This document shows positions 1-25,737 of a stretch of DNA of 64,000 nucleotides, in pieces. The notes beneath the pieces are model-generated. The model did not search any database and was not told where the DNA came from. It worked only from the letters and a program-made list of their open reading frames with translations. Position numbers and translations under genes: made by a program. Source of the stretch: Verrucomicrobiota bacterium (GTDB lineage Bacteria; Verrucomicrobiota; Verrucomicrobiia; Palsa-1439); the NCBI GenBank assembly GCA_016871575.1, contig VHCW01000001.1:35731-99730 (forward strand), read 5' to 3'. Positions within the stretch are counted from its first letter, which is position 1; each line of letters opens with the position of its first letter.

Positions 1-281
1 AACACGTGCTGGTACAAGAACAGCAAGGCGCTGAACGCTTGGTTCTGAGTTGAGGCGCTGACCCTGCCTTTTACAGCCAGGTGCGTCAGGAACTCGCGCA
101 CGTGTATTGCAGTCAACTCTTGCGGATGGCGTTTCCCGTGGAAGTAAATGTAACGTTTGATCCACTGGACATAAGTCTGTTCGGTGCGCAGGCTGTAATG
201 TTTGAAACGGCAGACCTGCCGAACCTGATCAAGCAATTTTGGCTTGTGAGCTGCCGTTGCGCTCGGTAAACTGCTGTCCAT
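1..281 (-). CDS. intI: Integron-integrase-like tyrosine recombinase, N-terminal part. The gene runs off the window start and its ATG is at 279-281 on the minus strand.
   Basis: Reverse-complement translation of 1..281 reads [93 protein letters not shown]. From memory of IntI1, this matches its N-terminus (..[33 protein letters not shown]....[22 protein letters not shown]). The ORF tool missed it because it is partial; the + strand ORF at 81..269 is its antisense shadow. Confidence 0.72.
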   Translation of the reverse strand, partial: [93 protein letters not shown]

Positions 282-1447: not shown

Positions 1448-2212
1448 TCACTTCCCAGCCTTGTTGAGATGCTTGTCGAAGAAGCCGAGCACCAACGGAC
1501 GGAGGTCGCGTTGTTTCGGCTGTAAATGAAACGTGTGCGGCGCGCCCTCGATGATGACGAGTTCGTGCGCGACACCGGCTTTCGTGAGCGCGGCGGCGAG
1601 TTCGCGGGAACGCGCGACATCAACAGTTTTGTCGGCAGTGCCGTGCAGGATGAGGAACGGCGGATCATTCTTGTCGAGGTAGCGCAACACCGCTGTCACG
1701 GGAAGTTCGCCTGCGGGCAGTTCGCCGACTTTCATGTAGAGCGGGCCGTACATGTCCACGACGCAACTCACGCTTGACGGGACATCGCCGTAGGGGTCTT
1801 TCGGTTCGAGGCCGTCGCGGGGCTGGGTGACGCCGACCATCGCGGAGAGATGTCCGCCAAGATAGGGATTGTCGAAGTCGCCCTCGCGCGCTTTGAACTC
1901 GTCGAGGCTGACGCACACACCGGCATCGCGGAGTTTTTCCAGTGTCTTCTCGATGCCGCACGCCTTGACGCTGTCGGCGAGGTCGTTGTGCTCGCAACCA
2001 GCCCGAAGCAACAGCTTGCGGTACGGGCTGACCGGGAGATCATAGATCAACTTCTTCGCAAGTGCGATAAAAATTCCGTTCCGGTTCTCCATCCGCCGTC
2101 GGATGTCGGCGACCGCTTGGTCGTGAGTCACTGGCGTCCGAAGGAACCGGCGAAGCCCGCCGGCCAGCCGCGCCAGTTGCCTGATTCGCGCCAATCTCAT
2201 TATGCGGCGCAT
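1448..2212 (-). pseudogene. Chimeric ORF, probably a gene remnant. An N-terminal ~110-aa segment paralogous to the N-terminus of the adjacent adenylating enzyme is fused to the C-terminal Asp/His half of an alpha/beta hydrolase, and the nucleophile region is missing.
   Basis: ORF 1448..2278 (alternative start M23 at 2212). Residues ..SPYRKLLLRAGCEHNDLADSVKACGIEKTLEKLRDAGVCVSLDEFKAREGDFDN align with ..SPYLPLLRRAGCAYEDIADGVRREGLEKFLARLKSAGVWVSFDEFKSAQQDFNN of ORF 2264..3790. The C-terminal part carries the HGTADKTVD and APHTF motifs of the dienelactone-hydrolase/prolyl-oligopeptidase family, but no GxSxG nucleophile elbow was found. Confidence 0.4.
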
Positions 2213-2263
2213 GATTGTTTCCTTGCGTGGCGGGCGCAATGAAATATTCTGCAAACAACACAC

Positions 2264-3790
2264 ATGACGTGGCGACAAGGCACATCCTATTTGCGGTTTC
2301 TGGCAGGGCTGCGGCAGTTCCTGAATTCACCGGTTTCATTTGAACAAGCGCGCGCCGCCCTGGCGCACGCGCTCCAACACCGGGAGGAAAACTTCCTCCA
2401 GATGCTCCAGCAATGTGTTTATGCAAATCCCGCCAGCCCGTACCTGCCGCTTCTGCGTCGGGCAGGCTGCGCCTACGAGGACATCGCCGATGGCGTGCGC
2501 CGCGAGGGGCTGGAGAAGTTTTTGGCGCGCCTGAAAAGCGCGGGCGTCTGGGTGTCGTTCGACGAGTTCAAGTCCGCCCAACAGGATTTCAACAACTACG
2601 CTCTCTCGGCCACCTGTGAGGTTTCGTCCGGCGGCAGTTCGGGTCAAACAGCCCGAAGCCACTTGGACTTGGATTACCTGGAGTTTCGCAGTTACTACGA
2701 TCATTTGTTCTTCCAGATGCTGGATTTGTATCGAGTGCCGATGGGGCTTTGGTATCCCAAACTCCCGGCAGTCACCGGCGTTGGGAACTGTCTTCGTTAC
2801 GCCAAGCTGGGCAAACCAGTGGACCGCTGGTTTTCCCTGCTCGCAACGGATCAGGTCAAATCCGGCCGCGCATTGTCCTTTGCCACCGACCTGATGGTTT
2901 GGGCCAGCCGGTTGTCCCGCCGCCCGTTGCCGATGCCGGAACTGCTCGAAATGGACAAGGTGGACACGGCGCTGGATTGGATACTTCAACAGCGGCAGAA
3001 CACCGGCCGCTGCGCTTTTCAGAGTTATCTCAGCCAGGTAATCCGCATCGCCCAAGCCGCCAAAACTCGCGAAACGGACTTGTCGAGTGTGGTGTTTATC
3101 GTCGGGGCGGAGCCGTTGACAGCAACCAGACATCGCGAGATCGAAGCCGTGGGCGCCCGTGTTTATTCCCGCTATTTTGCCAGCGAAATCGGCAGCATCG
3201 CGCTGGAGTGCGGTTGTCCCTGTGAGATTGGCGACTATCACCTGGTCACTCCCAGTGTCGCCGTTGTCACCGACGGCCCATCGCTTCTGTTCACCTCGCT
3301 CCTGCGTTCCGCGCCCAAAGTCTTGATCAATGTCCAACTGGGCGACAGCGGCATCTTGGAAGACCACGATTGCGGTTGCCTGATCGGCGAACTGGGGCTG
3401 CGCACGCACGTGCGCCAAGTGAGCAGTTTCCGGCGCGCCAAAAGCGAGGGCATGACCGTCCCCCACCGGGACCTCTCGCGCCTGATTGAAGAAGCGCTCG
3501 TTCCCAAGTATGGCGGCTCCTCGCTTGACTATCAGTGGATCGAACGCGAAGATGCGCGCGGTTTGACGCGGCTTTGTCTGCGTGTCCATCCGGACCGCGG
3601 CGCCATCAGCGAAACGGAAATGGTGGAAACCATTCTGGCGTGGTTGCGCCGTGGCGACGCCGGGTTGCCGCTGGCGGCGGAACTGTGGCGGAAAGCGGAC
3701 ACCATCCAGATTGTGAGGGAAAGACCCCAACAGACCGCGTTGGGCAAGACCGTGACCGTTGTTCGAGATGAAACGAAAACAAAACATTGA
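2264..3790 (+). CDS. Adenylate-forming enzyme of the PaaK/F390-synthetase family (phenylacetate-CoA ligase family, CapK-like).
   Basis: 508 aa. It has an SSGGSSGQTA motif resembling the ANL/PaaK phosphate-binding loop and a C-terminal HDCGCLIGELG motif resembling the CxCGR motif of F390-synthetase/PaaK-type enzymes. Its stop overlaps the start of the next gene. Confidence 0.55.
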   Translation: MTWRQGTSYLRFLAGLRQFLNSPVSFEQARAALAHALQHREENFLQMLQQCVYANPASPYLPLLRRAGCAYEDIADGVRREGLEKFLARLKSAGVWVSFDEFKSAQQDFNNYALSATCEVSSGGSSGQTARSHLDLDYLEFRSYYDHLFFQMLDLYRVPMGLWYPKLPAVTGVGNCLRYAKLGKPVDRWFSLLATDQVKSGRALSFATDLMVWASRLSRRPLPMPELLEMDKVDTALDWILQQRQNTGRCAFQSYLSQVIRIAQAAKTRETDLSSVVFIVGAEPLTATRHREIEAVGARVYSRYFASEIGSIALECGCPCEIGDYHLVTPSVAVVTDGPSLLFTSLLRSAPKVLINVQLGDSGILEDHDCGCLIGELGLRTHVRQVSSFRRAKSEGMTVPHRDLSRLIEEALVPKYGGSSLDYQWIEREDARGLTRLCLRVHPDRGAISETEMVETILAWLRRGDAGLPLAAELWRKADTIQIVRERPQQTALGKTVTVVRDETKTKH

Positions 3791-4511
3791 CCCCGATCCG
3801 AGAGTGACCATCCGCGTCATTCACGACTGCAACTTCCATTGCCCGCGCTGCTCCACCTTCAGCGTCCCCGGTCACCCCGCCCGGATGCGGCTTCCCCAAT
3901 TTCGACGCGCCATCAACATCCTTGTCCGGGAAAAGTTCCATGGCGCCCTCACCATCTCCGGCGGCGAACCCACGCTCCATCCGCGCCTGCCCGACATGAT
4001 TCGCTACGCCTCGACGCAACTGCCACAATCCACCCTCATCGTCTTCACCAACGGAAGCTGGGTCGGCGCGAAAAACTGGAAGCGCGCCCTGCGCGGATTG
4101 CTGGGCGGACCGAACGTGGTCATCCACTATTCATTCGACCGCCAGCACGTTGAAGGCGCGTCTCGCGCCGCCGGCGCGGACATGAAAACCGCGCTTTTTG
4201 ACCGGGCGCGGCAATTCGTTCGCGCCACGCCTCCCTCGCGATTTCGGATGGCGTTCAAGGGCGCGTTGCCCGAGGCAAAACAATTTCTCCACCCGCTTGG
4301 CCATGTCCCGATCTACCTCATTCATTTCGAGAAACAACCCGCACGACGACGGAAGAAACCCGGCGTTCTCGCCGTCGAGGTGAGCCGGGACAACCGGATG
4401 GAAGTGTTCCCGACGCTCGGTCACATCCCGCGCGGCGAATCGCTCGGCGGACTGGAAACGCTGGCCGAAGCGCTGCAATGGAACCGGAAGGCTCTTCGCG
4501 ATGCCCGCTGA
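3759..4511 (+). CDS. Radical SAM enzyme, short form without an auxiliary cluster domain.
   Basis: CNFHCPRC (Cx3Cx2C) near the N-terminus, ISGGEPTL, FTNGS. It overlaps the upstream gene by 23-32 nt and the downstream gene by 11 nt, consistent with translational coupling. Confidence 0.75.
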   Translation: MFEMKRKQNIDPDPRVTIRVIHDCNFHCPRCSTFSVPGHPARMRLPQFRRAINILVREKFHGALTISGGEPTLHPRLPDMIRYASTQLPQSTLIVFTNGSWVGAKNWKRALRGLLGGPNVVIHYSFDRQHVEGASRAAGADMKTALFDRARQFVRATPPSRFRMAFKGALPEAKQFLHPLGHVPIYLIHFEKQPARRRKKPGVLAVEVSRDNRMEVFPTLGHIPRGESLGGLETLAEALQWNRKALRDAR

Positions 4512-5418
4512 AAACCTCTCCATTGAACTGAAGATCACCGACCGCTGCAACCAGCAGTGTTTCCACTGCATGAACGATGACCAGCCGTCGGCGGGACGCG
4601 ATCTCGACTGCGAATTGTTCCTCCGCCGGCTGGACGAATGGGCAAGCGGCCGCGCACAGTCCGCCGTCAACTTCACCGAAGTCCGCATGACCGGCGGCGA
4701 ACCGCTGTTGAACTTGCCGGCCGTGACCATCATCGGAGAGCGTTGTCGCCGATTGCAGGTTCCTTGCGGCATCAACACCAACGCGACGTTGCTCGATGAA
4801 CCGGCTCTCGCCCTTCTCCACGCCACCGGACTCTCGACCATCAAAGCCTCCTTCGACAGCCTCGACGAAGATGTCTGGCGCGCGATGCGCGGCTCCGGCC
4901 TTTCGCCGGCAAGGACTGCCGGAGGAATTCGCCGGGCTGTGGCTGCCGGTTTTCATGTCATTGTGCGGTTCACCTTGTGCGCGCACAATCGCAGCCAGTT
5001 GCTCCCCTGTTACCGGGCCGCCCGCGACTGGGGCGTCCACAAGTTCCAAGTCAAACCAATGATCCCCGCCGGTCGCGCCGCCGGCGCCGATTCATTTCTC
5101 GACATCCCCGAACTGCGCCGCGCCATTCAAGAACTCTCCGAAATCGTTTCCGGCCCGGCTGCCGCTCCCGAAATCCTTTGCTGGCCGCCGGACTACGCCG
5201 CCGGACTCGCGGCGCGGCCTTGCGGCAACATGACGAAGATGTACATCGGCACGGATGGAAGCGTGTTCGATTGCAACTACCTCAGCGACCCTCCGTTTGC
5301 CTCGCTGCGCGAGCAGAGCCTCGAAGAAGCCTGCCGCCACCGGCATCGTCGCACCGAAACAACAACCGGCGGGCACTGCGTGCTCGCCGGTTGTCCCGCA
5401 TGGTCGAGTTGTTGGTAA
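4501..5418 (+). CDS. Radical SAM enzyme with a Cys-rich SPASM/twitch-like C-terminal auxiliary domain.
   Basis: CNQQCFHC (Cx3Cx2C), MTGGEPLL, INTNATL. C-terminal Cys-rich stretch: YIGTDGSVFDCNYL....CRH...GGHCVLAGCPAWSSC. Confidence 0.75.
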   Translation: MPAENLSIELKITDRCNQQCFHCMNDDQPSAGRDLDCELFLRRLDEWASGRAQSAVNFTEVRMTGGEPLLNLPAVTIIGERCRRLQVPCGINTNATLLDEPALALLHATGLSTIKASFDSLDEDVWRAMRGSGLSPARTAGGIRRAVAAGFHVIVRFTLCAHNRSQLLPCYRAARDWGVHKFQVKPMIPAGRAAGADSFLDIPELRRAIQELSEIVSGPAAAPEILCWPPDYAAGLAARPCGNMTKMYIGTDGSVFDCNYLSDPPFASLREQSLEEACRHRHRRTETTTGGHCVLAGCPAWSSCW

Positions 5419-5587
5419 GCACTCCGTCAAACTTGAATGGAAGGGGGCGTTTGTAGTACCGCACGCAGTCCCATGTCGTTTCGGGACGGAGTGCGGGCCG
5501 TTTGGATGCGACGGCCTCCCGCAACGCCACTTCGCTTCGCTGCGTGGCTCACTACGAACCGCCCATTGAATATAGTTTGAGGACGGG

Positions 5588-6901
5588 TTACACCAATTTG
5601 TCGCAGCCGGTGCTGATCGGCTCGAAGTGGCCGGGGCCGGGCTTGAGTTTTTCCTGCGGCGGCACAAGGTCCTGCTTGGAGCCGTTCATCAGCCAGTCCC
5701 ACGAAATCGTGCGGCCGGTGTAGGCGGCCGTGCGCAGGCCGACGGCCGTCAACGTGGTCTCGGCAATGCGCTTGCCGTGGTTGATGACCTTGCCGGCGCG
5801 GATGCTCTTGAGCATGTCAATGTGTTCCTGCTCCTGGCCGTTCACGCTTTGGCCCTCGTACTTCCACGGGTTCTCGCCGGTGATGGTGCCGTTGAGGTCG
5901 CTCGCCCCCTTGGTGCCGACGATTTTTTCGCCCATGCGATTGGTTCCGGGGCCGTGCCCGGTGAACGCGGTGCAACGGGCGCCGTTGGCGTATTCCATTT
6001 CGCCAAAGACGTGGTCCCAGATGTTGCCGTTGTATTTCTGCCAGTCGGCGTCGCTGCCGTCGTTGTATTTCTTGCAGACTTCCTTGGCGCTCTCGCTGTA
6101 GTCGCGGCACTGGCGTCCGCCGACGGCCATGAATTTCTTCGGCGGCCCGTCGAAACACCAGTTGAGCATGTCAATGTCGTGGATGGCCTGTTCGACGATC
6201 TGGTCGCCGCTGAGCCAGGTGAAATGATACCAGTTGTGGCATTGCCATTCGAGTTCGCTCATCCCTTCGCTGTCCTTGCGGTACCAGATGCCGCTGCCGA
6301 ACCAGTAACACTGTCCGCCGACGAGTTCGCCCATCTGCCCGGCGTGGATCCGCTTGAGCAACTCCACGCGGCTGAATTCGTGCCGGCGCTGCGTGCCGGC
6401 CACGATGGCCAGTCCTTTCTCCTCGGCGATCTTGGCCGCTTCGATGACCTGACGACAACCAACCACGTCAGTCGCCACCGGTTTCTCGGTGAAGATGTGC
6501 TTGGGCTTCGGCGCTTTGAGCGCGGCGAGCATCTGGCGCCCGCGAAACGCCGGCGCGGTGGCCATGACGAGCAGGTCGCACTCGGTCTGCGCCAGTTTCT
6601 CGTGGCAATCGAAGCCGTGGAAGATGTGGTCGTCCTTGATCTTGACGCGGTCCGCGTACTTCGGGTCCGCCTTCAATTTCTCGCGGCCGGTCATCGCTTT
6701 CTGCTCGAAGAGGTCGGCGCAGGCGATGACTTCGGTGCCGGGATCAGCGATGAGGCATTGGCGGATGGCGCCGTTGCCGCGCCCGCCGCAGCCAAGCCAG
6801 CCGACCTTGATGATGCCGGAGCCGGCGGCGTGAACGCGGTTCATGGCGCCGGTGACCAGGGCGGCGGCGCCGAGTGTTTGGGTGGTGGGTGTCGTTGACA
6901 T
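5588..6901 (-). CDS. Gfo/Idh/MocA family NAD(P)-dependent oxidoreductase with a twin-arginine (TAT) signal peptide.
   Basis: N-terminal signal followed by the Rossmann motif IIKVGWLGCGGRGNGA. An AAGGAG ribosome-binding site lies 7 nt upstream of the ATG at 6901. The + strand ORF 5627..6898 is a GC shadow. Confidence 0.85.
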   Translation of the reverse strand: MSTTPTTQTLGAAALVTGAMNRVHAAGSGIIKVGWLGCGGRGNGAIRQCLIADPGTEVIACADLFEQKAMTGREKLKADPKYADRVKIKDDHIFHGFDCHEKLAQTECDLLVMATAPAFRGRQMLAALKAPKPKHIFTEKPVATDVVGCRQVIEAAKIAEEKGLAIVAGTQRRHEFSRVELLKRIHAGQMGELVGGQCYWFGSGIWYRKDSEGMSELEWQCHNWYHFTWLSGDQIVEQAIHDIDMLNWCFDGPPKKFMAVGGRQCRDYSESAKEVCKKYNDGSDADWQKYNGNIWDHVFGEMEYANGARCTAFTGHGPGTNRMGEKIVGTKGASDLNGTITGENPWKYEGQSVNGQEQEHIDMLKSIRAGKVINHGKRIAETTLTAVGLRTAAYTGRTISWDWLMNGSKQDLVPPQEKLKPGPGHFEPISTGCDKLV

Positions 6902-6913
6902 GGGAAAATCTCC

Positions 6914-8248
6914 TTATTGCTTCTTGCCTTTGCCCTTGCCCTTGCCGCCTTCCTGTTTCTTCTTCGGCGCCTCGGTGATCCAACCGGCCAACTGATATTT
7001 GCCGGGAACGGCAACCGGAGCGACCGGATAGGAATCCTTGAGCTTGAGGCCCGGCGGCGGCAGGAGGTTGAGGTCGCACTTCACGGTGAACCAATTGCGG
7101 GTGAACTGCCGCATCGAGTAGGCGGACTCGCGCGCCATGATCGCGCTGAGCGTGCTCTCGGCCACGGTTTTGCCTTCGTTGAGCGGATTGCCGCTGCGAA
7201 TGCTGGCGATGAGGTCCGTGTGCTCCTGCACGTAGGGATCGGTCGCTTGCCCCTCGAACTTCCACGGTTTCTCGCCGGTGATGGAGGCGTTGCTGTTGTC
7301 CAGATTCGCCACGCCCTTGGTCCCGACGATGCGTTCGCTGACGCGGAAGTCCGCGCCTTGGATTTGACGGCAGGTGCTGAGTGTCCGGACATCGCCCGGA
7401 TAAAAGAACTCCGCGCCAAAGTGATCGTAAATGTTGCCGTACTCCTCGCCCGTGCGGAACTGGCGCCCGCCAACAGCGTGAACGGAGTCAGGCAACGCGT
7501 TGAACGCCCAGTTGACGACATCAATGTTGTGCATGTGCTGCTCGACGATGTGGTCGCCGCTGAGCCACGTGAAATAGAGCCAGTTGCGAAGCTGCCACTC
7601 GACGTCGCTCTGGCCGGGTTCGCGTTTCTTGACCCAGAGGCCGCCTTGGTTCCAGTAGCATTGCGCCGAAACGAGAGTTCCAATGTCGCCGCCGTGGATG
7701 CGTTTCATCGCCTCGATGTAGTGCGCCTGATGGCGGCGCTGCGTGCCGGCCACGACGCCGAGTTTCTTCTCGGCAGCCTGTTGCGAGGTCTCAAGGACCA
7801 TCTTGATGCCGGTCGGGCAGACGGCGACGGGTTTTTCCATGAACACGTGTTTGCCCGCTGCGATGGCAGCCGCGAAATGAAACGGACGAAACCCCGGCGG
7901 CGTGGCGAGGATGACAAGGTTCACGTCAGCCAACGCCAGCACTGCCTTGTAGGCGTCCAGCCCGGTGAAACACCGGTCGTCGGGGACTTCAAATTGTTTC
8001 TTCAACGCGGCCAGCCGGTCGCCGAAGGCGTCGGCCAGCGCGACGATCTTCACGCCATCCGACGACGCCACGCAATTCTTCGCGGCGCCGGTGCCGCGCC
8101 CGCCGCAGCCGATGACGCCCACGCGGATGGTGTCGGTGGATGCCGCCCAGAGGTTGCGTGTGAACGCGCTGTTGAGGGCGAGGCCGCCGGTGAGGACCGC
8201 CGTGTTCCGGAGGAACTGGCGGCGAGTAAGACTGTTTCTATTTGCCAT
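6914..8248 (-). CDS. Gfo/Idh/MocA family oxidoreductase with a TAT signal peptide.
   Basis: MANRNSLTRRQFLRNTAVLTGGLALNSA, then IRVGVIGCGGRGTGAA. Start chosen at the internal ATG (codon at 8246-8248), because the upstream part of the ORF is low-complexity. Confidence 0.85.
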   Translation of the reverse strand: MANRNSLTRRQFLRNTAVLTGGLALNSAFTRNLWAASTDTIRVGVIGCGGRGTGAAKNCVASSDGVKIVALADAFGDRLAALKKQFEVPDDRCFTGLDAYKAVLALADVNLVILATPPGFRPFHFAAAIAAGKHVFMEKPVAVCPTGIKMVLETSQQAAEKKLGVVAGTQRRHQAHYIEAMKRIHGGDIGTLVSAQCYWNQGGLWVKKREPGQSDVEWQLRNWLYFTWLSGDHIVEQHMHNIDVVNWAFNALPDSVHAVGGRQFRTGEEYGNIYDHFGAEFFYPGDVRTLSTCRQIQGADFRVSERIVGTKGVANLDNSNASITGEKPWKFEGQATDPYVQEHTDLIASIRSGNPLNEGKTVAESTLSAIMARESAYSMRQFTRNWFTVKCDLNLLPPPGLKLKDSYPVAPVAVPGKYQLAGWITEAPKKKQEGGKGKGKGKKQ

Positions 8249-8343
8249 GATGTTGTTGCTCCTGCTGGGATGGTGATGCGAAACTTGCGCGGAAGATACC
8301 AAGTCCACCCCGAAACGCAAGCAGATGCTTCTTCTTTGTTGGC

Positions 8344-10143
8344 TCAACCGATGGCCCGCAACACCTCGATCACACCGGCGCCGCCGCCGGGGGACATCAG
8401 GTAGAGGCCGTCCCAACCTTCGCGCTTGACCCGGCGAATTTGCCCGCTGGCAATCTCGCGCCCGGCCTTCGCTTGATCGTCCAACGTCTCGAATGCGGCG
8501 AGCCGGTTCAGGATTTCGTCGGGCAACACGACGCCGGGCACTTCGGCGACGCGACGGGCCTGGTCGAGACTGGCGAGCACCATCACGCCGACCAGAAACG
8601 CGCAGTTGCCGCCGCGGAATGTCTCCAGCGCGGCCAGCGGTTCGTGTCGGAACGCGGGCTGGGTCATCACGTAGTCGGCGCCGTTGTCGAGCTTTTGCCG
8701 GAGCTTGTCCAGTTCGCGCCCGCGGTTGACCGCTTCCGTCTCGAACCCGGTGCCGATGGTGAAATGGGTGCGCGGGTCGGCTTGTTTGCCGAGCGGCGCG
8801 CCGCCAAAATCCACGCCGGCGTTGAGACAGGCATGTGTGAGGCGCACCATCGCCGGCGAATCGAGGTCGAAGACGGCCGTCGAACGCGGATACGTCGGCG
8901 ACATCTTCGGCGGATCGCCGGTGATGAAGAGGACGTTGTGAATGCGGTTGGCGTGATAACCGATGAGCCGGCTTTGGATGCCCATCAGATTCAGGTCGCG
9001 CGCGGCAAAGTGCGGGATGAACTCCAGCGCGCCGCCGAGCTGGCCGCGAACGATGTGGATGAAATCGCCGGGCGGCATCAACGGGATGCCGCGCGATCCA
9101 TCGGTGATGTCCACGGCGTCAGCCAGCCCGCTGGCGCTCAGTTGGCGGATGAAATCCACTTTGTGCTGGAGGGCCTTCGCGTCCGTGCCCCGCGGCGGAA
9201 GGAGTTCGACGCTGACGGCAAACTCGCCATCCACAATTTTGCGCGAGAACGGCCCGTTGGCGCGTTTCTCGGCGTCACCCGCCGCCGGTGTGGCAGCGGT
9301 GTTGACGACGGCAACGCTGCGGGTTTGGCGGGAGCGGAGGTAATTGTGCATCTCGCGAATGTGCGGCGGATGCACCTCGCAACAGCCGCCGATGAGCCGC
9401 ACGCCGCGGTCAAGAAAACTGCGGGCGAGTTTGCCGACGTACTCCGGGTTGACGTTGGTCATGAACCGGTGGCCGATGCGCTGGAAACCGCCGCCGTTGG
9501 GCATCACGGAGAGCAGCACGCCGGGAAAATCCTTCACGGCCTCGACAAAAGCGTCGGCGTCCCACGGCGCGCAGCAGTTGACGCCGGCGACGGGCACGCA
9601 CCGGGCGCGCATCCGCGCGACGAAGCCAAGCGGGTCGGCTGGGTCGGTCAGTTCGGCGATGAGCGGCGGAAGATTGGGATGCGATTGGACGACGTCGAGC
9701 GCGCTCTCCAAGTCGGCAAGCGAGCGGAACGTCTCCAACAACAACGCGTCGGGCTTGGCGGCGGTGAGCGCCTCGATCTGTTCGCGGTCAGCGCCGGGAC
9801 CGACAGACGCGAGGATGAACACCGGCTCCGCGGGCTGGAATCGGGCGATGGCGTCGCGGGCGATCTGGACGCCGGCGCGGTTGATGGCGGCAGCCTGCTT
9901 GTCGAGGCCGAACAATTGGAGCGCGGAGCGGTTGCCGCCGAAGGTGTTGGTCTTCAGGCAGCGCGCCCCGGCGGCGAGGTAGGCGAGGTGGATCTCCTGG
10001 ATCAGTTCAGGGCGGTCGAGATTGAAGGATTCATAAACATGGTTGGCCTCCGAGAGCCGGCCCGTGCGCTCGAAGAGCAGCGAACCCATCGCGCCGTCCG
10101 CCAGCAACGGCCCGTCGCGCAATGTTGTCAGGAAATCTGTCAT
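8344..10143 (-). CDS. Bifunctional homocysteine S-methyltransferase / 5,10-methylenetetrahydrofolate reductase (MTHFR).
   Basis: The N-terminal half has the S-methylmethionine/homocysteine methyltransferase (Pfam S-methyl_trans) fold (..LLADGAMGSLLFERTG..CLKTNTFGGN..). The C-terminal half is MTHFR-like (..VSVELLPPRGTD....FITGDPPK..). Start taken at MTDFL. Confidence 0.7.
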   Translation of the reverse strand: MTDFLTTLRDGPLLADGAMGSLLFERTGRLSEANHVYESFNLDRPELIQEIHLAYLAAGARCLKTNTFGGNRSALQLFGLDKQAAAINRAGVQIARDAIARFQPAEPVFILASVGPGADREQIEALTAAKPDALLLETFRSLADLESALDVVQSHPNLPPLIAELTDPADPLGFVARMRARCVPVAGVNCCAPWDADAFVEAVKDFPGVLLSVMPNGGGFQRIGHRFMTNVNPEYVGKLARSFLDRGVRLIGGCCEVHPPHIREMHNYLRSRQTRSVAVVNTAATPAAGDAEKRANGPFSRKIVDGEFAVSVELLPPRGTDAKALQHKVDFIRQLSASGLADAVDITDGSRGIPLMPPGDFIHIVRGQLGGALEFIPHFAARDLNLMGIQSRLIGYHANRIHNVLFITGDPPKMSPTYPRSTAVFDLDSPAMVRLTHACLNAGVDFGGAPLGKQADPRTHFTIGTGFETEAVNRGRELDKLRQKLDNGADYVMTQPAFRHEPLAALETFRGGNCAFLVGVMVLASLDQARRVAEVPGVVLPDEILNRLAAFETLDDQAKAGREIASGQIRRVKREGWDGLYLMSPGGGAGVIEVLRAIG

Positions 10144-10299
10144 CGCCGGCACAGTATAGTGAAACCGCGCCGCTGACAATCCTGCATCCGCCCCACCCGT
10201 ATGAATTTCATGCTACAGATGTAGCACGGAATTCATCTTGCGGGAGGGTTGCGCGCGGGATGTTTGACAGGGGCGGCGGGCGCGGCGTATAAGGGGTGC

Positions 10300-10773
10300 A
10301 TGGAACATCTTTGGGCGCCCTGGCGCATCCGTTATATTTTGGAACCAAAGGAAACCGGCTGTTTTTTCTGCCGCAAATCGCAGGAAGCCGACGACGCGAA
10401 GAACCATATTTTGATCCGCGACCGGACCTGCTTCGCCCTGCTCAACACGTACCCGTACAACCCCGGCCACCTGATGGTCGCGCCCTACAAGCACACCGGA
10501 AACCTCGATGACCTCGCCGAACAGGAACTCGGCGACCTGATGCTGTTGACGCGACGCTGCAAAAATCTTCTCGCCAAGGCGCTGAAGCCGGACGGCTTCA
10601 ACATCGGAATCAATTTCGGACGCGTCGCCGGCGCGGGCGTCGAGGACCACGTGCACGTGCACATCGTGCCGCGCTGGAACGGCGACACCAATTTCATGCC
10701 CGTGCTCGGCGACGTGCGGGTCATCCCGCAGGCGCTCGACGAACTCTACGCGGAACTTCGCAAGCAGGCATAG
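10300..10773 (+). CDS. HIT (histidine triad) family hydrolase.
   Basis: HVHVHIVPR histidine-triad motif. Start placed at MEHLWAPW. Confidence 0.8.
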   Translation: MEHLWAPWRIRYILEPKETGCFFCRKSQEADDAKNHILIRDRTCFALLNTYPYNPGHLMVAPYKHTGNLDDLAEQELGDLMLLTRRCKNLLAKALKPDGFNIGINFGRVAGAGVEDHVHVHIVPRWNGDTNFMPVLGDVRVIPQALDELYAELRKQA

Positions 10774-10788
10774 CCAGGAGCCTTCACT

Positions 10789-11496
10789 GTGGAGAACGCT
10801 GAACCGAAAGCGACACTGGCGCCTGTCACGGCTTGCATCGCGCCTTCGCTTCGCGATCGCGTGCGGCTGGCGCAGGGATTTTATTTTCTGTTTTTCGGCG
10901 GCATGGCCTCGGTGGTGTTTGTGGCAGAGATGACGCTGGCCACGGCGCCCCGTTCATTTTCCACGCCGTTGTGCGCCGGCAGCCTGTTGGCGATGCTGGT
11001 CGGTGCGTGGCGATTGCACTGTGTCAAAACACTCGGCATGGAATGGGCGCAATCGGTCCGGTGCCTGCTCATTGCGACGGCGTTGCTGGCGTATCTGTTT
11101 CCGTTTCTCTGGGCTTGGCGGCAGTTTCCCAGGAATTTTTATTTCTGCTGTCATGGCCTCGCGTTTCTCGGAATGCTGATCCTGACCGTGATGGCGATGT
11201 CGGTCGCCAGCGCCGCGCTGGCGCGGGCGGCGGGACGGACAGGGCTGACCTGGCAGATGGTGTTGAGCTTGGTCACGGCGCTCGTGATCCAACTCGCGCC
11301 GTTTACCTATCTGGCGCGCCTGCTGGCCGGCGGCGTCATGCAGGGCGAAGACGTCATGATGAAACTGCAAGCCTTCGTCGCGCATGTTCATCTATTCTGG
11401 GTGATCCTGTGGCTGCTGCCGTTCACGTTGTCGCTCTCCTTGGTCTGGACCGCCAAGGACATCGCGCTGGAACAATTGCTGGACGCAAAACAATAA
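10789..11496 (+). CDS. Hypothetical integral membrane protein.
   Basis: Multiple hydrophobic segments and no conserved motifs. The antisense ORF 10833..12209 is rejected as a shadow. Confidence 0.4.
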   Translation: MENAEPKATLAPVTACIAPSLRDRVRLAQGFYFLFFGGMASVVFVAEMTLATAPRSFSTPLCAGSLLAMLVGAWRLHCVKTLGMEWAQSVRCLLIATALLAYLFPFLWAWRQFPRNFYFCCHGLAFLGMLILTVMAMSVASAALARAAGRTGLTWQMVLSLVTALVIQLAPFTYLARLLAGGVMQGEDVMMKLQAFVAHVHLFWVILWLLPFTLSLSLVWTAKDIALEQLLDAKQ

Positions 11497-11498
11497 GC

Positions 11499-12194
11499 TT
11501 ACGAAAAACTGCGGGTGATCCGGCCTGGCTGGCGGCGCAGCAGCGGATCAGTCACGATCATCCGCACTGCGTTCCAAATCGTTTCCGGTGGACTGTGCCG
11601 CTCGATGCGCCCCGCGCGGATGGCCGCGAACAACGACAGCACCGTCGGCTCGGCGTCCACCAGCGAGTAATGCTGGCCGAACATCCAGAGGTTGTGCGCA
11701 TCGGATGTCGCCACGACGGTCTTGCCGTGCGCGGCGGCGACGCGAAGGGCCTTGCGGTTGGAATTCAGCCACGTGAAATGCAGGTGGCAATACTCGATCG
11801 CGTCGAACACGTCCATGTAGCGTTCCAACCAGCGATGCAGGCTGTGTTTGAAGAAATACGGATGCGGCGCCATCATCAACACATCGTCGCCGCGCTCGCG
11901 CCGCAACGCGCGCAGATCATCGAGTGTCCGGAGCTGTTCGCACTCGCGCTGGCTGATGTTGTAGAGCAACACATCGCCGTGCGGCGATTCCCATTCGACG
12001 CCGCGCACCAGCAACACGCCTTTGCTCCGCGCGTAGTCGAACACCCGCTCATCGTCGAGCACCACGCCGTGCAACGTCACCGCCAGCGCGCCGAAGCCGA
12101 GCGCCGCCGCCTTGTCAATCACCGCTGTCGCCGGGTGCGGCAGGCCATCCTCGGGGTCTTCGCCGGCGTGCGTGTGGAGGTCCACCTTGATCAT
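11499..12194 (-). CDS. PHP (polymerase and histidinol phosphatase) domain metal-dependent phosphoesterase.
   Basis: MIKVDLHTHAGED..., typical of the N-terminus of PHP-domain proteins. Its start overlaps the AddA-like stop (ATGA). Confidence 0.7.
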   Translation of the reverse strand: MIKVDLHTHAGEDPEDGLPHPATAVIDKAAALGFGALAVTLHGVVLDDERVFDYARSKGVLLVRGVEWESPHGDVLLYNISQRECEQLRTLDDLRALRRERGDDVLMMAPHPYFFKHSLHRWLERYMDVFDAIEYCHLHFTWLNSNRKALRVAAAHGKTVVATSDAHNLWMFGQHYSLVDAEPTVLSLFAAIRAGRIERHSPPETIWNAVRMIVTDPLLRRQPGRITRSFS

Positions 12195-15100
12195 TTCAGC
12201 ACCAGATAGCGGTCGGCGGTCACTGCGTAGAGTCCGAGTTCCTTGACGGCCTGGCCGGTGGCAGCCTGCCAGCAAGTCCGGTATGACTCCAACTGCACCC
12301 GATATTGCTCCAGCAACGTTTCCGGTCTTTCCATGCGGTCGGTTTTGTAATCCACCAACACCCAGCCGTCCGCCTCCTCAAAGGCCAAATCAATCACTCC
12401 GCGCACCAGTCCATCCGCCAACGCCACCACCACCGGCGCTTCCGCCAACCGCCGCTGGGCCTTCTGCGCCCGCTGCCACAATTCCGACTTCACCACCTTC
12501 CCCGCCACCGCCACCGCCTCACCGGCCAGCGCAACATCCAATTCCGCCGCCCGCAACGCCGACACTGCCGCCGCGTGCAAATCGCCGGCCGGCTCACGCA
12601 TCGCCGTTTGCAACAACAAATGAATCACGCTCCCCCAACGCATCCCGTCACCGTCCGTTCGCGCCATCACCGCCGCCGTTGCCGGCTTCGCGGCGCGCGT
12701 CGCGTAGGTTGGCGTTTTGATTGTCTCCCAACGCGCGGCAATCGCCGCGCGCGCCGCCGCCACGTCCGCGCCCGTCAACGTGACCGGTTTCGTCACCGGC
12801 GCCGATTGCGGTCCCGGATCCGGCAATGCCGCCGCATCTTTCAGCGCCGGTTCCAATGGATTCCACGGATTCGATGCCGCGCGTTTGTCGCGCAACGACA
12901 CGATCAACTGGTCCCGCGCCCGCGTTGCGGCGACGTAGAGCAGCCGGTTTTCCTCCGCCTGCCGGAACTGCGCTTCGCGTGCGGCGAGTTTTTCCCAATC
13001 CAGCGGATGCGCGAGCAACGATCCCCTGCCAAACGCGTTCGTCGCGCCGTACAACGCCAAGTGCCCGGTCACCCGCGCGCCGCGCCGGTCCACGTGCAAT
13101 TCCACCTCGTGCTCGCTCGCGCCGGCCGGGTCGGCCAGGAAGACCACCGGCGCTTGCAGTCCCTTGACCTTGTGCAAATTCATCACGCGCACCGCGGCGC
13201 CGGTCGGCGCGGTCGCCGATGCGCCGTCGTGCGGTTCATCCGCCGTTGCCCACCGTCCCAACTGTTCCACCATCGCCGCCGCCGTCGGCCAGTCCGCCTG
13301 CCCGGCGCGCAACAACTCCAGCGCCTTGCCGAGGCTGCCGGCTTCCACGTCGCCGCCCGGCGCGCCGGCCGCCAGCGGCAACAAACCGAGGTCGTTCGCG
13401 ACCCGTTCCACCGCAATCACCGGCGCCAGCGACCCCAACCACTCCGCAAACCGGCGCAACACCGCAAACGCTTCGCCCATCGGCCCGGTCGCGTCGCTCC
13501 GCCAATCAAACCGCCCGCCGGCGCGCCGGTGGGCGTACAGTTCCTCGTCGCTGAACCCGAACAACTCGCTGCGCAACGCCGCCACGACCGCGACCGGGTT
13601 GTCGGGTTCGAGCGCGGCGCGCAACGCGGCGTGCCAGAGACCGAGTTCGCGCACTTCGTTGAGCGAACTGCCGCCGGTCACCTCGTGCGGCAGGCCGAGT
13701 TGTTGCAGCGCGTCGGCGTACACGCTCAGCCGGTCCTTCCGTCGGGTGACGATGAGAAAATCTCCCGGCGTCCGGCCCGATGCGCGGATGTGCCGCGCGA
13801 TGAAATCCGCCTCGGCAACCGCGATGTCGCTCTGATTGTCGCCGGTGACCTTGACCTGAAAAACGGCGGCATCAGCGGGTTGCTCCTCGCGCCCCACCAA
13901 AAACGGCACATACCCCGGCGCGACTTCGTTCGCCGCGGCGGGGAAGAACTTGCCGCCGCCAAACACCGCGTTCACCCAATCCACCACCGGCCTGGCCGAG
14001 CGGAAGTTCGCCGACAGCGTGACGACCGCGCCGCCGGTGTCCTGGATGATTTGTTTCACCGTGTTGTACGTCACGATGTCGGCGCGGCGGAACCGGTAGA
14101 TGGACTGCTTCGGGTCGCCGACCACAAACAACGACCCCGGCGCGGGCCGGCACTTGCGCCAGTCGCGTTCGCGCAGGTTCTCGGCGGTCAACAGCAACAT
14201 CACTTCGGCCTGCACCGGGTCGGTGTCCTGAAACTCGTCCACGAGCACGTGCGTAAACCGGCGGCGGAAGTATTGCCGGACTTCGGGGCGCTCGCGCAGC
14301 AGCTTGGCGGCGAGCAACAACAAATCCTGGAAATTCAATCCGTGCGCCGCCTCGCGTTGCCGGTCATAGACGGCCCGCACGCCCTGCAACACGCGCAGCA
14401 CCGACGGATACCGGTGCGCCCGCCACGCCGTCACGAACGGCCCGGCCACGTCGTCGCAAAACTTGTCCCACTGTTCGTGTTCGCGCAACGCCTGTTCCTT
14501 GCCGTTGGGCCAATACTTGTGCGTGCACTTGCGGCCCGGTTTGAACTGCTCCAGAATCTCCGCCACTTCCGAGCGGCGCGCCAGGTCGTGCGAGCGCAAC
14601 ATCCGCAGCACGCGACGGAACAATCCTGCCAACTCGTCCGTGCCATTCGGATCCGGCAGGTTTTTCTCCATGTGCGCCGCGTATTCGCGCAGCGCCGCCA
14701 CCGCCGGCATCAACGCCGGCGCCGGCACTTCGGGCGCGGGCCAGTCGTGCACATCCGGGTAGTTGGCGAACCGTTGGAACGCCGGCCACAAATCCGCCAG
14801 CGGGATGCCGAGTTCATCCAACTCGTTGAGCAGCGAATCGTCCTTTGCGAACAACTCGTTTGTGAAGTTTTCCCACGCCTGATGGCGGAGCCGTCCGTCG
14901 CGTTCGTCGTCGAGTTCCTCGAAATCCGGGTCCACGCCCGCCTCGACCGGCCGCTCGCGCAGCAGTCGCCCGCAAAACGAATGCACCGTGCTGATCTGGC
15001 ATTGCGCCGCCTGGGGAAGTTTCTCACGCAACCGCTCGCGCAGTTCCGCCGCCGCCTTGCGGGTGAACGTCACCGCCGCCAGCGTGTCGGCGCTGCATTT

Positions 15101-15235
15101 GCCGGCATTGACGAGCGCGACGATGCGGTTCACCATCGCCGTGGTCTTGCCGGTGCCGGCGGCGGCCTCGACGATCATTGTCGTGTCGAGTTGCGCGGTG
15201 ATTTTGCGGCGCTCGTTGTGGTCGGGAGGGTTCAT
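12191..15235 (-). CDS. addA: AddA-like ATP-dependent helicase/nuclease (UvrD-family helicase with a C-terminal PD-(D/E)XK nuclease).
   Basis: Walker A motif AAAGTGKTT. C-terminal nuclease motif ..VDYKTDR. The start at MNPPDH overlaps the upstream gene by 4 nt. Confidence 0.78.
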   Translation of the reverse strand: MNPPDHNERRKITAQLDTTMIVEAAAGTGKTTAMVNRIVALVNAGKCSADTLAAVTFTRKAAAELRERLREKLPQAAQCQISTVHSFCGRLLRERPVEAGVDPDFEELDDERDGRLRHQAWENFTNELFAKDDSLLNELDELGIPLADLWPAFQRFANYPDVHDWPAPEVPAPALMPAVAALREYAAHMEKNLPDPNGTDELAGLFRRVLRMLRSHDLARRSEVAEILEQFKPGRKCTHKYWPNGKEQALREHEQWDKFCDDVAGPFVTAWRAHRYPSVLRVLQGVRAVYDRQREAAHGLNFQDLLLLAAKLLRERPEVRQYFRRRFTHVLVDEFQDTDPVQAEVMLLLTAENLRERDWRKCRPAPGSLFVVGDPKQSIYRFRRADIVTYNTVKQIIQDTGGAVVTLSANFRSARPVVDWVNAVFGGGKFFPAAANEVAPGYVPFLVGREEQPADAAVFQVKVTGDNQSDIAVAEADFIARHIRASGRTPGDFLIVTRRKDRLSVYADALQQLGLPHEVTGGSSLNEVRELGLWHAALRAALEPDNPVAVVAALRSELFGFSDEELYAHRRAGGRFDWRSDATGPMGEAFAVLRRFAEWLGSLAPVIAVERVANDLGLLPLAAGAPGGDVEAGSLGKALELLRAGQADWPTAAAMVEQLGRWATADEPHDGASATAPTGAAVRVMNLHKVKGLQAPVVFLADPAGASEHEVELHVDRRGARVTGHLALYGATNAFGRGSLLAHPLDWEKLAAREAQFRQAEENRLLYVAATRARDQLIVSLRDKRAASNPWNPLEPALKDAAALPDPGPQSAPVTKPVTLTGADVAAARAAIAARWETIKTPTYATRAAKPATAAVMARTDGDGMRWGSVIHLLLQTAMREPAGDLHAAAVSALRAAELDVALAGEAVAVAGKVVKSELWQRAQKAQRRLAEAPVVVALADGLVRGVIDLAFEEADGWVLVDYKTDRMERPETLLEQYRVQLESYRTCWQAATGQAVKELGLYAVTADRYLVLK

Positions 15236-17805: not shown

Positions 17806-17886
17806 CTCTGCCAGCGCGGACAAAAAAACCGCGGCGCTTTTGCGTGGTGTTTTGGCCGGAAAATTGTTAGTTGTTTCCACGAGACG

Positions 17887-20621: not shown

Positions 20622-20755
20622 GTGTGATTGTGCGGCACCTTGGCCGTCTCATTCGACAAAAACTGATAACCCATCCGGACTTGTGGTGGGAAGCACAAAA
20701 ACACCGGCGCTCAAGAAACGCCGCTGCCGTCTGTCAACTCGGTGAGGATGATAAC

Positions 20756-20956
20756 TTAGAGTTTAACGACGTTCTGGGCCTTCGCGCCTTTGGCATCCTC
20801 GATCAGGTCGAACTCGACGACCTGCCCCTCAGCCAGCGTCTTGAATCCCTCTCCCCGGATGGCCGAGAAATGCACAAACACATCAGGACCGCCGTCCCGC
20901 TGAATGAACCCATAACCCTTCTTGTCGTTGAACCACTTGACTGTGCCGCGAGCCAT
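20756..20956 (-). CDS. cspA: Cold-shock protein of the CspA family.
   Basis: [33 protein letters not shown]..., 66 aa, with a long 5' UTR. Confidence 0.92.
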
Positions 20957-21075
20957 ACTATACCTCCGATACTAAACAAAAATCGCGATCGTTCAACGTG
21001 TTCGACCGCGATTCTACGTCAATTATTCATATTGCTTGTATCCGCGCGCCTTATACCAAGCGAAGGGGGCGTTTG

Positions 21076-23449: not shown

Positions 23450-23505
23450 GATTCCAACCTTACCGCTCCGGGGCGGTCAAGTCCAGTGGCTTGTGAAATT
23501 ACCGC

Positions 23506-25080: not shown

Positions 25081-25087
25081 GCGTTCC

Positions 25088-25657
25088 TCACGGGGTTGAG
25101 ATTTCGAGTGTCATCGTATCTTGTGGTTGCTGCCGATAAAACGTCCGCACCGTGCAACGGGACACCGGCACGACGCCATCATAGCGCGCCGCCAGCGTCT
25201 TGACAGCAAAATTTTCCCACGCCACCGGCACGGCAAGCCATTCCACGCGCTGCGAGCCGTCCGTCAACTGCCATTCCACGCTCACGTGCGCCGCCGCGGC
25301 GTGAAACTCCCGCTCGCCCGTCTGCGCCCGCAACTGCAACTGCAACAGCACGCCGTCGCGGTGCGCCCGTTGAATCTTCAACGACGGATTCAACAACGGC
25401 TCCGACACGGTCGCCGTGGAGGCGGTCACAAGGCCGGTGACCAGCGGCGAGATGGTGTTGCTGGCGGCCGTGTTGCTCGATAACAGCGTGTACAATTCCA
25501 CGATTTCCGTTGATTGGACGGGCATCCGCGGCGAACGGTGCGACTGGAACAACCACACCAACAACGCGACTTCGCCAAGAATCAACAACGCCACGCAGAC
25601 AGCCGCCGCAATTTGCAGGCTGTCGAGCGGGCGCCGGTTTTGTTCGTGCTGTTCCAC
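25088..25657 (-). CDS. Hypothetical membrane-anchored protein, directly upstream of and co-oriented with the kinase-FGE gene.
   Basis: One N-terminal transmembrane helix ([22 protein letters not shown]). Confidence 0.4.
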
Positions 25658-25737
25658 CGTCGGTTTTATCTTAACATAATGTCGCCTGATTTCGCAGTGG
25701 AAACTTCGCGCCCGCCACGCTAGACTGAAAACAAGTC

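What the first reader, a model, noticed from the sequence alone, without database searches (positions are those of the whole stretch)
1448..2700. Divergently encoded paralogous ~110-aa N-terminal modules, one fused to half of an alpha/beta hydrolase
ORF 1448..2278 (minus strand) and ORF 2264..3790 (plus strand) start back-to-back; their annotated 5' ends even overlap by 15 nt. They encode clearly homologous N-terminal segments (SPY..LL.RAGC...D.AD.V...G.EK.L..L...GV.VS.DEFK......F.N). The plus-strand copy continues into a full PaaK/F390-synthetase-like adenylating enzyme. The minus-strand copy instead continues into only the Asp/His half of an alpha/beta hydrolase, with no nucleophile elbow. 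This looks like a local inverted duplication plus fusion, leaving a recombination scar or chimeric pseudogene. It sits next to a site-specific recombinase, which fits an unstable accessory region.
Basis: seen in the sequence. Interest (0 to 1): 0.5.

Follow-up and report, generated by a model that had tools for sequence, protein, structure and literature searches.

The report
Chimeric pseudogene at an inversion junction
The odd "half ligase, half esterase" gene is debris from a chromosome rearrangement: an esterase gene was split by an inserted piece of DNA, and a 531-base inverted repeat left by that event now lets a 68-kb stretch of chromosome sit in either orientation in the population.

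Summary
The minus-strand ORF (database gene call 1448-2212, 254 aa) and the plus-strand 508-aa gene share 42% identity over 113 aa (E 4e-27). The minus ORF continues into only the Asp/His half of an esterase, starting three residues after the nucleophile serine.

The ORF is a three-piece chimera:
- 10 nt of the ligase operon leader;
- 343 nt from the 5' end of a different PaaK-like ligase paralog;
- 412 nt of esterase 3' half, joined through a 9-nt microhomology.

The esterase 5' half, with the serine, survives about 68 kb away. It lies outside the window and abuts an inverted 531-bp second copy of window 2203-2733. Independent metagenome assemblies show both orientations of the 67.6-kb segment between the two copies, and all four junctions were recovered.

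In the other orientation the esterase halves lie 874 bp apart, in ancestral synteny, flanked by a 124-bp duplication.

The fusion is unique to this population and lacks the catalytic parts of both parent families, so it is most likely a pseudogene. The neighbouring recombinase is an integron integrase truncated before its catalytic tyrosine and shows no sign of involvement. This is ordinary rearrangement biology, unusually well documented.

The parts
1448..2212 (-). Chimeric ORF P0001 (254 aa plus stop; FJ395_00150): leader-derived start, ligase N-terminal fragment, esterase C-terminal half
   Evidence: The exact protein is on record in NCBI and JGI on 7 contigs. No other protein in 5.8 billion clusters combines the two halves.
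1448..1859 (-). Esterase 3' half (codons 119-254 plus stop). It keeps Asp194 and His226 and lacks Ser, the signal peptide and the first five strands.
   Evidence: blastn gives 90% identity to L001 10411-10835, inside an intact 273-aa esterase gene. Pfam and PDB alignments agree.
1735..1858 (-). 124-bp esterase segment that is present twice: here and at the 3' end of the separated esterase 5' half
   Evidence: The second copy is L007 8037-8160, 96.8% identical.
1850..1858 (-). 9-nt microhomology GGCGGACAT (Gly-Gly-His) at the ligase-fragment/esterase junction
   Evidence: The same 9-mer, allowing the third codon positions to differ, ends the N-module in the ligase paralog (GGCGGCCAC) and follows the nucleophile in the intact esterase (GGCGGTCAT).
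1860..2202 (-). N' fragment: the first ~114 codons (helical N-terminal microdomain) of a PaaK-like ligase from a different subfamily than the neighbouring gene. It has no P-loop.
   Evidence: Identity is 60% to P0275, 52% to P0240 and 42% to the neighbour; 67.8% nt to L027 1171-1470. The native ATG is at 2200-2198. It lies outside the 531-bp repeat.
2203..2733 (+). Left copy of the 531-bp inverted repeat: 61 bp of operon leader plus the first 470 bp of the ligase gene. The ATG of P0001 (2212-2210) lies in it on the other strand.
   Evidence: The second copy is in L007, L011, L017-L020 and L024-L026. All 11 differences fall in 2389-2617. The repeat is bounded on the left at 2203 and on the right at 2733.
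2264..3790 (+). Intact PaaK-like (ANL superfamily) ligase, 508 aa, first gene of a ligase-rSAM-rSAM operon
   Evidence: The family profile hits PaaK structures at E 1e-10. The AF2 model has pLDDT 93.2 and matches 2y27 at E 1.8e-17. G494-K495 and the GGSSG loop are conserved.
3759..5418 (+). Two radical SAM genes (250 and 305 aa) co-transcribed with the ligase
   Evidence: Pfam Radical_SAM. The same three-gene order occurs in P0202's contig, L028 and L033.
2734..64000 (.). The part of the 67.6-kb invertible segment that lies in the window. It continues to about position 70310 of the same contig.
   Evidence: Window 62151-64000 equals L007 1-1850 at 100%, and the esterase 5' half ends at L007 8160. 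NCBI protein numbering puts the esterase 5' half (MBM3858099) 57 genes after P0001.
1..281 (-). First 94 codons of an integron integrase gene that is truncated, outside the window, before its catalytic tyrosine
   Evidence: Window 1-2740 equals L007 10886-8147. NCBIfam TIGR02249 scores 402 bits over model positions 1-277 of 315, and the translation ends HLLENGTV*.

Best explanation
The minus-strand ORF is a non-functional chimera left at a breakpoint of a complex chromosomal rearrangement.

Shown:
- An esterase gene that is intact in relatives is split here.
- Its 3' half (from three residues after the nucleophile Ser) is joined through a 9-nt microhomology to a 343-bp 5' fragment of a PaaK-like ligase paralog.
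- That fragment is joined in turn to the leader of the resident ligase-rSAM-rSAM operon.
- The esterase 5' half, with the Ser, is joined tail-to-tail to a second, inverted 531-bp copy of that leader plus the first 470 bp of the ligase gene.
- The two 531-bp copies are inverted repeats, and the 67.6 kb between them is found in both orientations in assemblies of the same population.
- In state B the two esterase halves are 874 bp apart, co-oriented and in ancestral synteny, with a 124-bp direct duplication on either side of the insert.
- State A, which is this window, is the flipped form.

Inferred:
- The primary event was a microhomology-mediated, template-switch-type insertion of an 874-bp composite (inverted operon 5' end plus paralog 5' end) into the esterase gene.
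- The flip arises by recombination within the 186-bp identical block (2203-2388) of the repeats.
- The chimeric product, which lacks the ligase P-loop and all ligase catalytic motifs and lacks the esterase nucleophile, has no enzymatic function.
For: Homology and missing nucleophile.

Intact orthologous esterase and the synteny break exactly at window 1859.

All four junction types were recovered from independent assemblies:
- A-left: the window, L008, L009, L010.
- A-right: L024, L025, L026. In addition, the NCBI protein numbering places the esterase 5' half and the 173-aa repeat ORF (MBM3858099 and MBM3858100) on the same 123-kb contig, 57 genes after P0001.
- B-left: L007, L011.
- B-right: L027, 100% identical to window 2203-13790.

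Repeat boundaries, microhomologies and the 124-bp duplication.

State B is collinear with relatives L001 and L005 (radC-hflX-miaA-...-esterase).

The fusion architecture is unique (cluster of one; no other N-module/hydrolase fusion).

The N-module is the helical microdomain that precedes strand 1 and the P-loop of a PaaK-like fold.
Against: - The ORF is intact and has a Shine-Dalgarno-like AAGGAA 7 nt before its ATG (sequence).
- N' keeps every family-invariant residue and covers exactly one structural subdomain, so a functional neo-protein is not excluded.
- No donor for N' was found (best match 60%), so the single-event template-switch history is inference.
- Both orientations come from short-read assemblies that must cross a 186-bp exact repeat. 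No single sample was shown to hold both states.
- The sequence of this contig beyond position 64000 could not be read directly.
Confidence: 0.8

Rival explanations
1. P0001 is a functional new protein. The helical N-terminal microdomain of a PaaK-like ligase, fused to a C-terminal esterase fragment, would act for example as a binding partner or decoy for the neighbouring ligase.
For: The frame is intact, the ATG is preceded by an SD-like motif, and all invariant residues of the N-module are kept (own comparison with the sequence printed). The fragment boundaries coincide with the helical microdomain, residues 1-110 of the model. PaaK N-terminal microdomains are proposed to mediate protein interactions (PMC7497051).
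Against: All copies are identical, so there has been no time for decay and intactness says little. The esterase half lacks strands 1-5 and cannot form the fold. The architecture is unique to one population. The start codon and SD lie by accident in the reverse complement of the operon leader, and in the other context the same ATG opens a 33-codon ORF.
Confidence: 0.07
2. Only one orientation exists in nature. The other set of contigs are assembler mis-joins through the 531-bp repeat.
For: Many contigs end inside 2263-2760 (L015, L017-L020, L008, L009), which shows that the repeat troubles the assemblers. No single sample was shown to hold both left junctions.
Against: Each of the four junctions was assembled, seven times for state A and three times for state B, in different samples and with different pipelines (JGI, ENA, Logan, NCBI MAG), including contigs of 123 kb, 45 kb and 23 kb. 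Assemblers usually break at unresolved repeats rather than join them. The chimeric ORF itself is outside the repeat and is identical in six assemblies either way.
Confidence: 0.1
3. One reading: the N-module is a recent local inverted duplicate of the adjacent gene's 5' end that then fused to the hydrolase.
For: The two modules are head-to-head and homologous.
Against: Identity to the neighbour is 42% aa, against 60%, 52% and about 68% (nt) to members of another subfamily, including a paralog in the same genome. The true recent duplicate of the neighbour's 5' end is the 531-bp repeat, 98% identical (11 differences in 531 bp), and it excludes N'.
Confidence: 0.03
4. The rearrangement or the flipping is catalysed by the adjacent integron integrase or another site-specific recombinase, making this a programmed switch.
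For: An integron integrase gene and an attC-like hairpin lie within 1.5 kb.
Against: The integrase is truncated before the catalytic Tyr. The junctions show 9-nt and about 1-nt microhomologies and a 124-bp duplication, not GTTRRRY sites. The repeats are 531-bp gene fragments, not short recombinase sites. No invertase was seen in the flanks examined.
Confidence: 0.03

Closest known systems
Large chromosomal inversions between inverted repeat copies that coexist in a bacterial population (for example the S. aureus hsdMS-flanked inversion, PMC6778178)
   Same: Two near-identical inverted repeats flank a large segment. Both conformations are found. SNPs inside the repeats mark where exchange occurs. 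Short-read assemblies are troubled at the repeats.
   Different: The repeats here are 531-bp remnants of a rearrangement, against 1,748-bp functional paralogous loci. The segment is 68 kb rather than a large part of the chromosome. No phenotype is known. In S. aureus the inversion was independent of recA; here the mechanism is untested.
Chimeric ORFs or pseudogenes at breakpoints formed by microhomology-mediated illegitimate recombination or template switching (FoSTeS/MMBIR-type insertions; my own knowledge, not checked in the literature here)
   Same: Junction microhomology of 9 nt, an inserted inverted copy of a locus from tens of kb away, extra filler from a homeologous gene, and a duplication of the target around the insert.
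   Different: The 124-bp target duplication is long, and the donor of the filler could not be found, so a one-piece foreign fragment is an equally good source.
PaaK-type phenylacetate-CoA ligases and PaaK-like ligases NatL2 and AjiA1 (2y27, 4r1l, 6siw, 6wuq)
   Same: The plus-strand gene shares the fold, the Gly/Ser-rich loop and the C-terminal Gly-Lys. It also has an N-terminal helical microdomain.
   Different: Identity is only 14-16%. The protein is about 80 residues longer, with a larger helical N-module. There is no Pfam hit. It is coupled to two radical SAM genes, and its substrate is unknown. The minus-strand ORF holds only the microdomain.
BD-FAE / Abhydrolase_3 carbohydrate and acetyl esterases (6nkf, 6xyc, 5ao9)
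   Same: The intact relative P0002 aligns over the whole fold with the Ser-Asp-His triad.
   Different: The window ORF holds only the last 136 residues. The other 178 residues are in a separate truncated ORF.

Membership tests
alpha/beta hydrolase (BD-FAE / Abhydrolase_3 esterase): minus-strand ORF | Nucleophile elbow G-x-S-x-G | tested here: not met
   The esterase part starts at GGH, three residues after Ser136 of GGSAGG in P0002. The serine sits in the separate 188-aa ORF P0121.
alpha/beta hydrolase (BD-FAE / Abhydrolase_3 esterase): minus-strand ORF | Acid and histidine of the triad | tested here: met
   GTAD194 and GAPH226 align with D213 and H245 of P0002 and with HGDQD/GAGH of 6nkf.
alpha/beta hydrolase (BD-FAE / Abhydrolase_3 esterase): minus-strand ORF | Complete eight-stranded core | tested here: not met
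   Only the last 30-35% of the Pfam profiles is matched. DNA homology to the intact gene starts at its codon 138.
PaaK-like ANL adenylating enzyme: plus-strand 508-aa gene | Sequence and fold homology to solved PaaK ligases | tested here: met
   Profile against PDB: 9s3l E 1e-10, 4r1l E 3e-9. Foldseek: 2y27 E 1.8e-17, TM 0.66 on the target.
PaaK-like ANL adenylating enzyme: plus-strand 508-aa gene | Gly/Ser-rich phosphate-binding loop and C-terminal catalytic Lys | tested here: met
   SSGGSSG lies at 121-127, with G124 nearly invariant. G494-K495 are invariant in 14 sequences and K495 in 45. Their assignment as catalytic motifs rests on general knowledge of ANL enzymes.
PaaK-like ANL adenylating enzyme: plus-strand 508-aa gene | Adenylation or ligase activity and substrate | not testable with these tools
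   No biochemical data exist, and no characterised close relative was found.
PaaK-like ANL adenylating enzyme: minus-strand ORF | Presence of the catalytic core (P-loop onwards) | tested here: not met
   Homology ends at residue 118, before strand 1 and the P-loop of the model.
Integron (neighbouring element) | Integron integrase above the family threshold | tested here: met
   TIGR02249 scores 402 bits against a cut-off of 265.
Integron (neighbouring element) | Integrase complete, with catalytic tyrosine | tested here: not met
   The model is matched over positions 1-277 of 315, and the product ends HLLENGTV*.
Integron (neighbouring element) | attC site after the cassette | tested here: inconclusive
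   Window 1384-1445 has ACCGAAC...GTTCGGC ends. Its bottom strand folds at -19.9 kcal/mol, z -4.0. No attC model was available.
Programmed invertible switch (invertase plus short inverted repeats) | Short recombinase sites and a cognate intact invertase nearby | tested here: not met
   The repeats are 531-bp gene fragments. The only recombinase in the flanks read is the truncated integrase.
Inversion polymorphism between inverted repeats | Two inverted homologous copies, with all four junctions observed | tested here: met
Inversion polymorphism between inverted repeats | Both states within one population or sample, and dependence on RecA | not testable with these tools
   Only consensus contigs were available. 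The states differ between samples of one JGI series.

The most novel reading that the evidence does not exclude
The 68-kb flip is not neutral. In state B the ligase-rSAM-rSAM operon sits directly downstream of, and co-oriented with, GNAT, asparagine-synthase-like and MurF-like genes, and near an NMT1 gene plus a second ligase paralog. Together these form one biosynthetic cluster. In state A, this window, the operon keeps only 61 bp of its native upstream region and is 68 kb from its partners. The repeat pair would then work as an accidental on/off (phase-variation-like) switch for an uncharacterised PaaK-like/radical-SAM pathway. The chimeric ORF, whose start codon and ribosome-binding site lie in the repeat, would be expressed as a helical-microdomain protein in both states.
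Probability: 0.07. Interest if true: 0.55.

Novelty: new member of a known kind. Interest (0 to 1): 0.27.

Why it matters
As biology this is modest. It is a clean, fully reconstructed case of a gene-fusion ORF arising from illegitimate recombination, and of the leftover repeat then making a 68-kb core-genome segment invertible in a natural freshwater verrucomicrobial population.

Practically, it warns that FJ395_00150, FJ395_00440 and FJ395_00445 are gene fragments and should not be annotated as enzymes. It also warns that the contig order here is one of two states.

The more interesting object is next door. A PaaK-like ligase family has no Pfam model: 56 clusters by word search and more than 1,000 representative clusters by exhaustive search. 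Part of it is coupled to two radical SAM enzymes across several phyla, and its product is unknown.

Tried and rejected
- Exact-pattern scans of genome contigs and metagenome contigs with a 36-nt esterase-5'-half pattern found nothing. Those collections evidently lack these samples.
- The exact look-up of the first rSAM product failed because of a different start call.
- The window's own 123-kb contig was never returned as DNA. Its far junction therefore had to be inferred from NCBI protein numbering and from other assemblies.
It succeeded after listing of cluster members gave it an id.
- The 45-sequence alignment was too diverse for the search for related loci. A 14-sequence one worked.
- Pfam and NCBIfam give no family for the ligase.
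- Rfam finds nothing in 1-6000.
- The promoter scan found nothing, which is not informative for this phylum.

Rejected models:
- A simple two-break inversion between the esterase gene and a full-length paralog. It predicts the esterase 5' half joined co-directionally to the paralog's 3' part, which is not seen.
- An intact second gene carrying an identical N' module. None is present in 5.8 billion clusters.
- A head-to-head pair of ligase paralogs as a conserved architecture. None of 9 other loci has two copies.
Full report
**1. The observation**

ORF listing and sequence show a minus-strand ORF 1448-2278 (TTG start) and a plus-strand ORF 2264-3790. NCBI and JGI both call the minus gene from the ATG at 2212 (254 aa; P0001 = MBM3858042.1, FJ395_00150). 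The two starts are therefore 51 bp apart rather than overlapping.

BLASTP of the two products gives 42% identity over 113 residues without gaps, E 4e-27. At DNA level this appears as 72%-complementary inverted repeats.

Residues 119-254 of the minus product match only the C-terminal ends of alpha/beta-hydrolase profiles.

**2. The esterase half**

A database search with the minus product found the exact protein and then about 1,800 ordinary 270-300-aa esterases that cover only its second half. The best is P0002 (273 aa, 93% identical).

P0002 aligns with solved esterases and has Ser136 (GGSAGG), Asp213 and His245. The window ORF begins its esterase part at GGHLSAMVG, three residues past the serine, and keeps Asp194 and His226.

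At DNA level, window 1435-1859 is 90% identical to the 3' part of the intact gene in relatives. The homology stops at 1859.

**3. The other half, and two arrangements**

Contigs carrying the exact P0001 protein fall into two classes.

- *Class A* (the window, L008, L009, L010). P0001 is followed by the intact 508-aa gene.
- *Class B* (L007, 45 kb; L011). P0001 is preceded by a 188-aa ORF, P0121. This is the esterase 5' half with the GGSAGG serine and a signal-peptide-like start. Between the two lies a 173-aa ORF on the opposite strand, which is a copy of the first 157 codons of the 508-aa gene.

L007 is the reverse complement of window 1-2740 on one side. At its other end it is identical to window 62151-64000 in the forward sense.

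All differences between the window and L007/L011 lie in 2389-2736. The B contigs therefore carry a distinct copy of the ligase 5' end.

NCBI protein numbering shows that the window's own 123-kb contig also carries P0121 (MBM3858099) and the 173-aa ORF (MBM3858100). They lie 57 genes after P0001, behind hflX, an arylsulfatase gene and a Gly-zipper gene.

Three further assemblies (L024-L026) show what lies beyond that second copy: the 3' end of a MurF-like gene and an intergenic region, then sequence identical to the window from 2203.

A 23-kb contig (L027) shows the same upstream region joined to the window-type copy. It is 100% identical to window 2203-13790.

All four junctions of an inversion are therefore on record:

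| Junction | Assemblies |
|---|---|
| A-left | 4 |
| A-right | 3, plus the NCBI gene order |
| B-left | 2 |
| B-right | 1 |

The repeat is window 2203-2733 (531 bp). It has 186-bp and 116-bp identical blocks around a 229-bp core that holds 11 SNPs. Nine of these are synonymous, and the two replacements match the residues of relatives. The segment between the copies is 67.6 kb.

**4. Which state is ancestral**

In state B the order is radC ... hflX, miaA, sulfatase, Gly-zipper, esterase 5' half, [insert], esterase 3' half. This follows the order in relatives that have the intact gene (L001, L005).

In state B the ligase operon also lies directly after co-oriented GNAT, asparagine-synthase-like and MurF-like genes. 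These have an NMT1 gene and a 495-aa ligase paralog on the other strand.

State B is therefore the older orientation. It is an esterase gene interrupted by 874 bp, made of the reverse complement of 2203-2733 plus 343 bp of N'. The insert is flanked by a 124-bp direct duplication of esterase sequence. State A, the window, is the flipped derivative.

**5. Junction anatomy**

- *N'/esterase.* The junction lies inside GGCGGACAT (Gly-Gly-His). These nine bases are shared by the ligase family (DFDNP.LGGH) and the esterase (SAGGH).
- *Esterase 5' half/repeat.* At most one or two shared bases.
- *Repeat/N'.* The join is at 2202/2203, two to three bases before the native ATG of N' (2200-2198).
- *Annotated start.* The ATG at 2212 and an AAGGAA seven bases upstream of it lie in the reverse complement of the operon leader. 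In the other context the same ATG opens only a 33-codon ORF.

These are signatures of illegitimate, microhomology-guided joining, not of site-specific recombination.

**6. What N' is**

N' is not a copy of its neighbour. Identity is 42% to the 508-aa gene, 52% to P0240, 60% to the best of 1.84 billion representatives (P0275), and 67.8% (nt) to the 495-aa paralog of the same genome.

It keeps every invariant residue of the family's N-terminal region (against the sequence). It therefore came recently from a working gene. The donor was not found.

The family profile hits solved phenylacetate-CoA ligases and PaaK-like ligases (E 1e-10 to 1e-8). A confident model (pLDDT 93, pTM 0.91) matches PaaK1 and relatives (E 2e-17). 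In the model, residues 1-110 are a helical microdomain and strand 1 and the Gly/Ser loop follow at 117-127. N' is that microdomain and nothing more.

In the exhaustive search the module always sits at the N-terminus of ligases of about 500-560 aa, or of fragments that continue into ligase sequence. No other fusion to a hydrolase exists. None of nine other loci has two family genes head-to-head.

**7. The recombinase**

The gene that begins at window 281 on the minus strand is an integron integrase by NCBIfam (402 bits). It ends at HLLENGTV*, before the tyrosine box.

The 327-aa ORF between it and the scar looks like a cassette:
- GC content is lower.
- It is flanked by AAGTTCGG(T/C)G.
- It is followed by an attC-like hairpin.
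- It replaces two unrelated ORFs of the relative.

Nothing links this element to the breakpoints.

**8. Verdict**

The finding is one junction of a reconstructed rearrangement: a chimeric, almost certainly dead ORF. The proposed origin (local inverted duplication of the neighbour, helped by a recombinase) is not.

The added result is a 68-kb inversion polymorphism mediated by a 531-bp repeat that the same event created. In the window's state it separates the ligase-rSAM-rSAM operon from the rest of its cluster.

The phenomenon belongs to well-known classes (PMC6778178 gives a comparable reversible inversion). Interest is low to moderate.

**9. Open points**

- The donor of N'.
- Whether the 874-bp insert arose by template switching in place or arrived as one foreign fragment.
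- The cause of the SNP-rich core of the repeat.
- Whether both states coexist within a sample.
- Whether the flip affects operon expression.

Noticed in passing
window 1-1447 (and L007 10606-11487): This looks like a degenerate chromosomal integron. The integron integrase (TIGR02249, 402 bits) is truncated before its catalytic Tyr. The low-GC 327-aa ORF (392-1375) is flanked by AAGTTCGG(T/C)G at 373-382 and 1436-1445. An attC-like hairpin lies at 1384-1445 (bottom strand -19.9 kcal/mol, z -4.0). The relative L001 has two unrelated small ORFs in the same slot.
   Followed up: partly
window 2264-5418; L027 2-6301; L028, L033: An uncharacterised PaaK-like ligase family has no Pfam model (56 clusters by word search, 1,090 representatives by exhaustive search with its N-module). 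In Verrucomicrobia, Deltaproteobacteria and Acidobacteriota it is followed by two radical SAM genes. Here it is part of a larger cluster with GNAT, asparagine-synthase-like and MurF-like genes, and with an NMT1 gene plus a second ligase paralog.
   Followed up: partly
window 5423-5580 and L027 6319-6463: A 158-bp element lies just after the second rSAM gene. A 78%-identical inverted copy lies about 150-295 bp upstream of the ligase start, so the three-gene operon is bracketed by inverted repeats. Only two copies were seen, and there is no Rfam match.
   Followed up: partly
window 229-382 and 1435-1859 versus L001: The esterase region and a short stretch by the integrase start are 90-95% identical to a lineage whose flanking core genes (ubiA, radC) are only 65-75% identical. 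This suggests recent exchange of this small region between lineages.
   Followed up: no
window 5588-8416: Two tandem paralogous Gfo/Idh/MocA oxidoreductase genes (437 and about 444-500 aa) on the minus strand are 68-70% identical to each other at DNA level.
   Followed up: no
P0342, P0395: Two database proteins start as this ligase family and then continue into unrelated sequence (an SRP/FlhF-like GTPase in P0342). They may be other rearrangement or assembly chimeras in the family.
   Followed up: no
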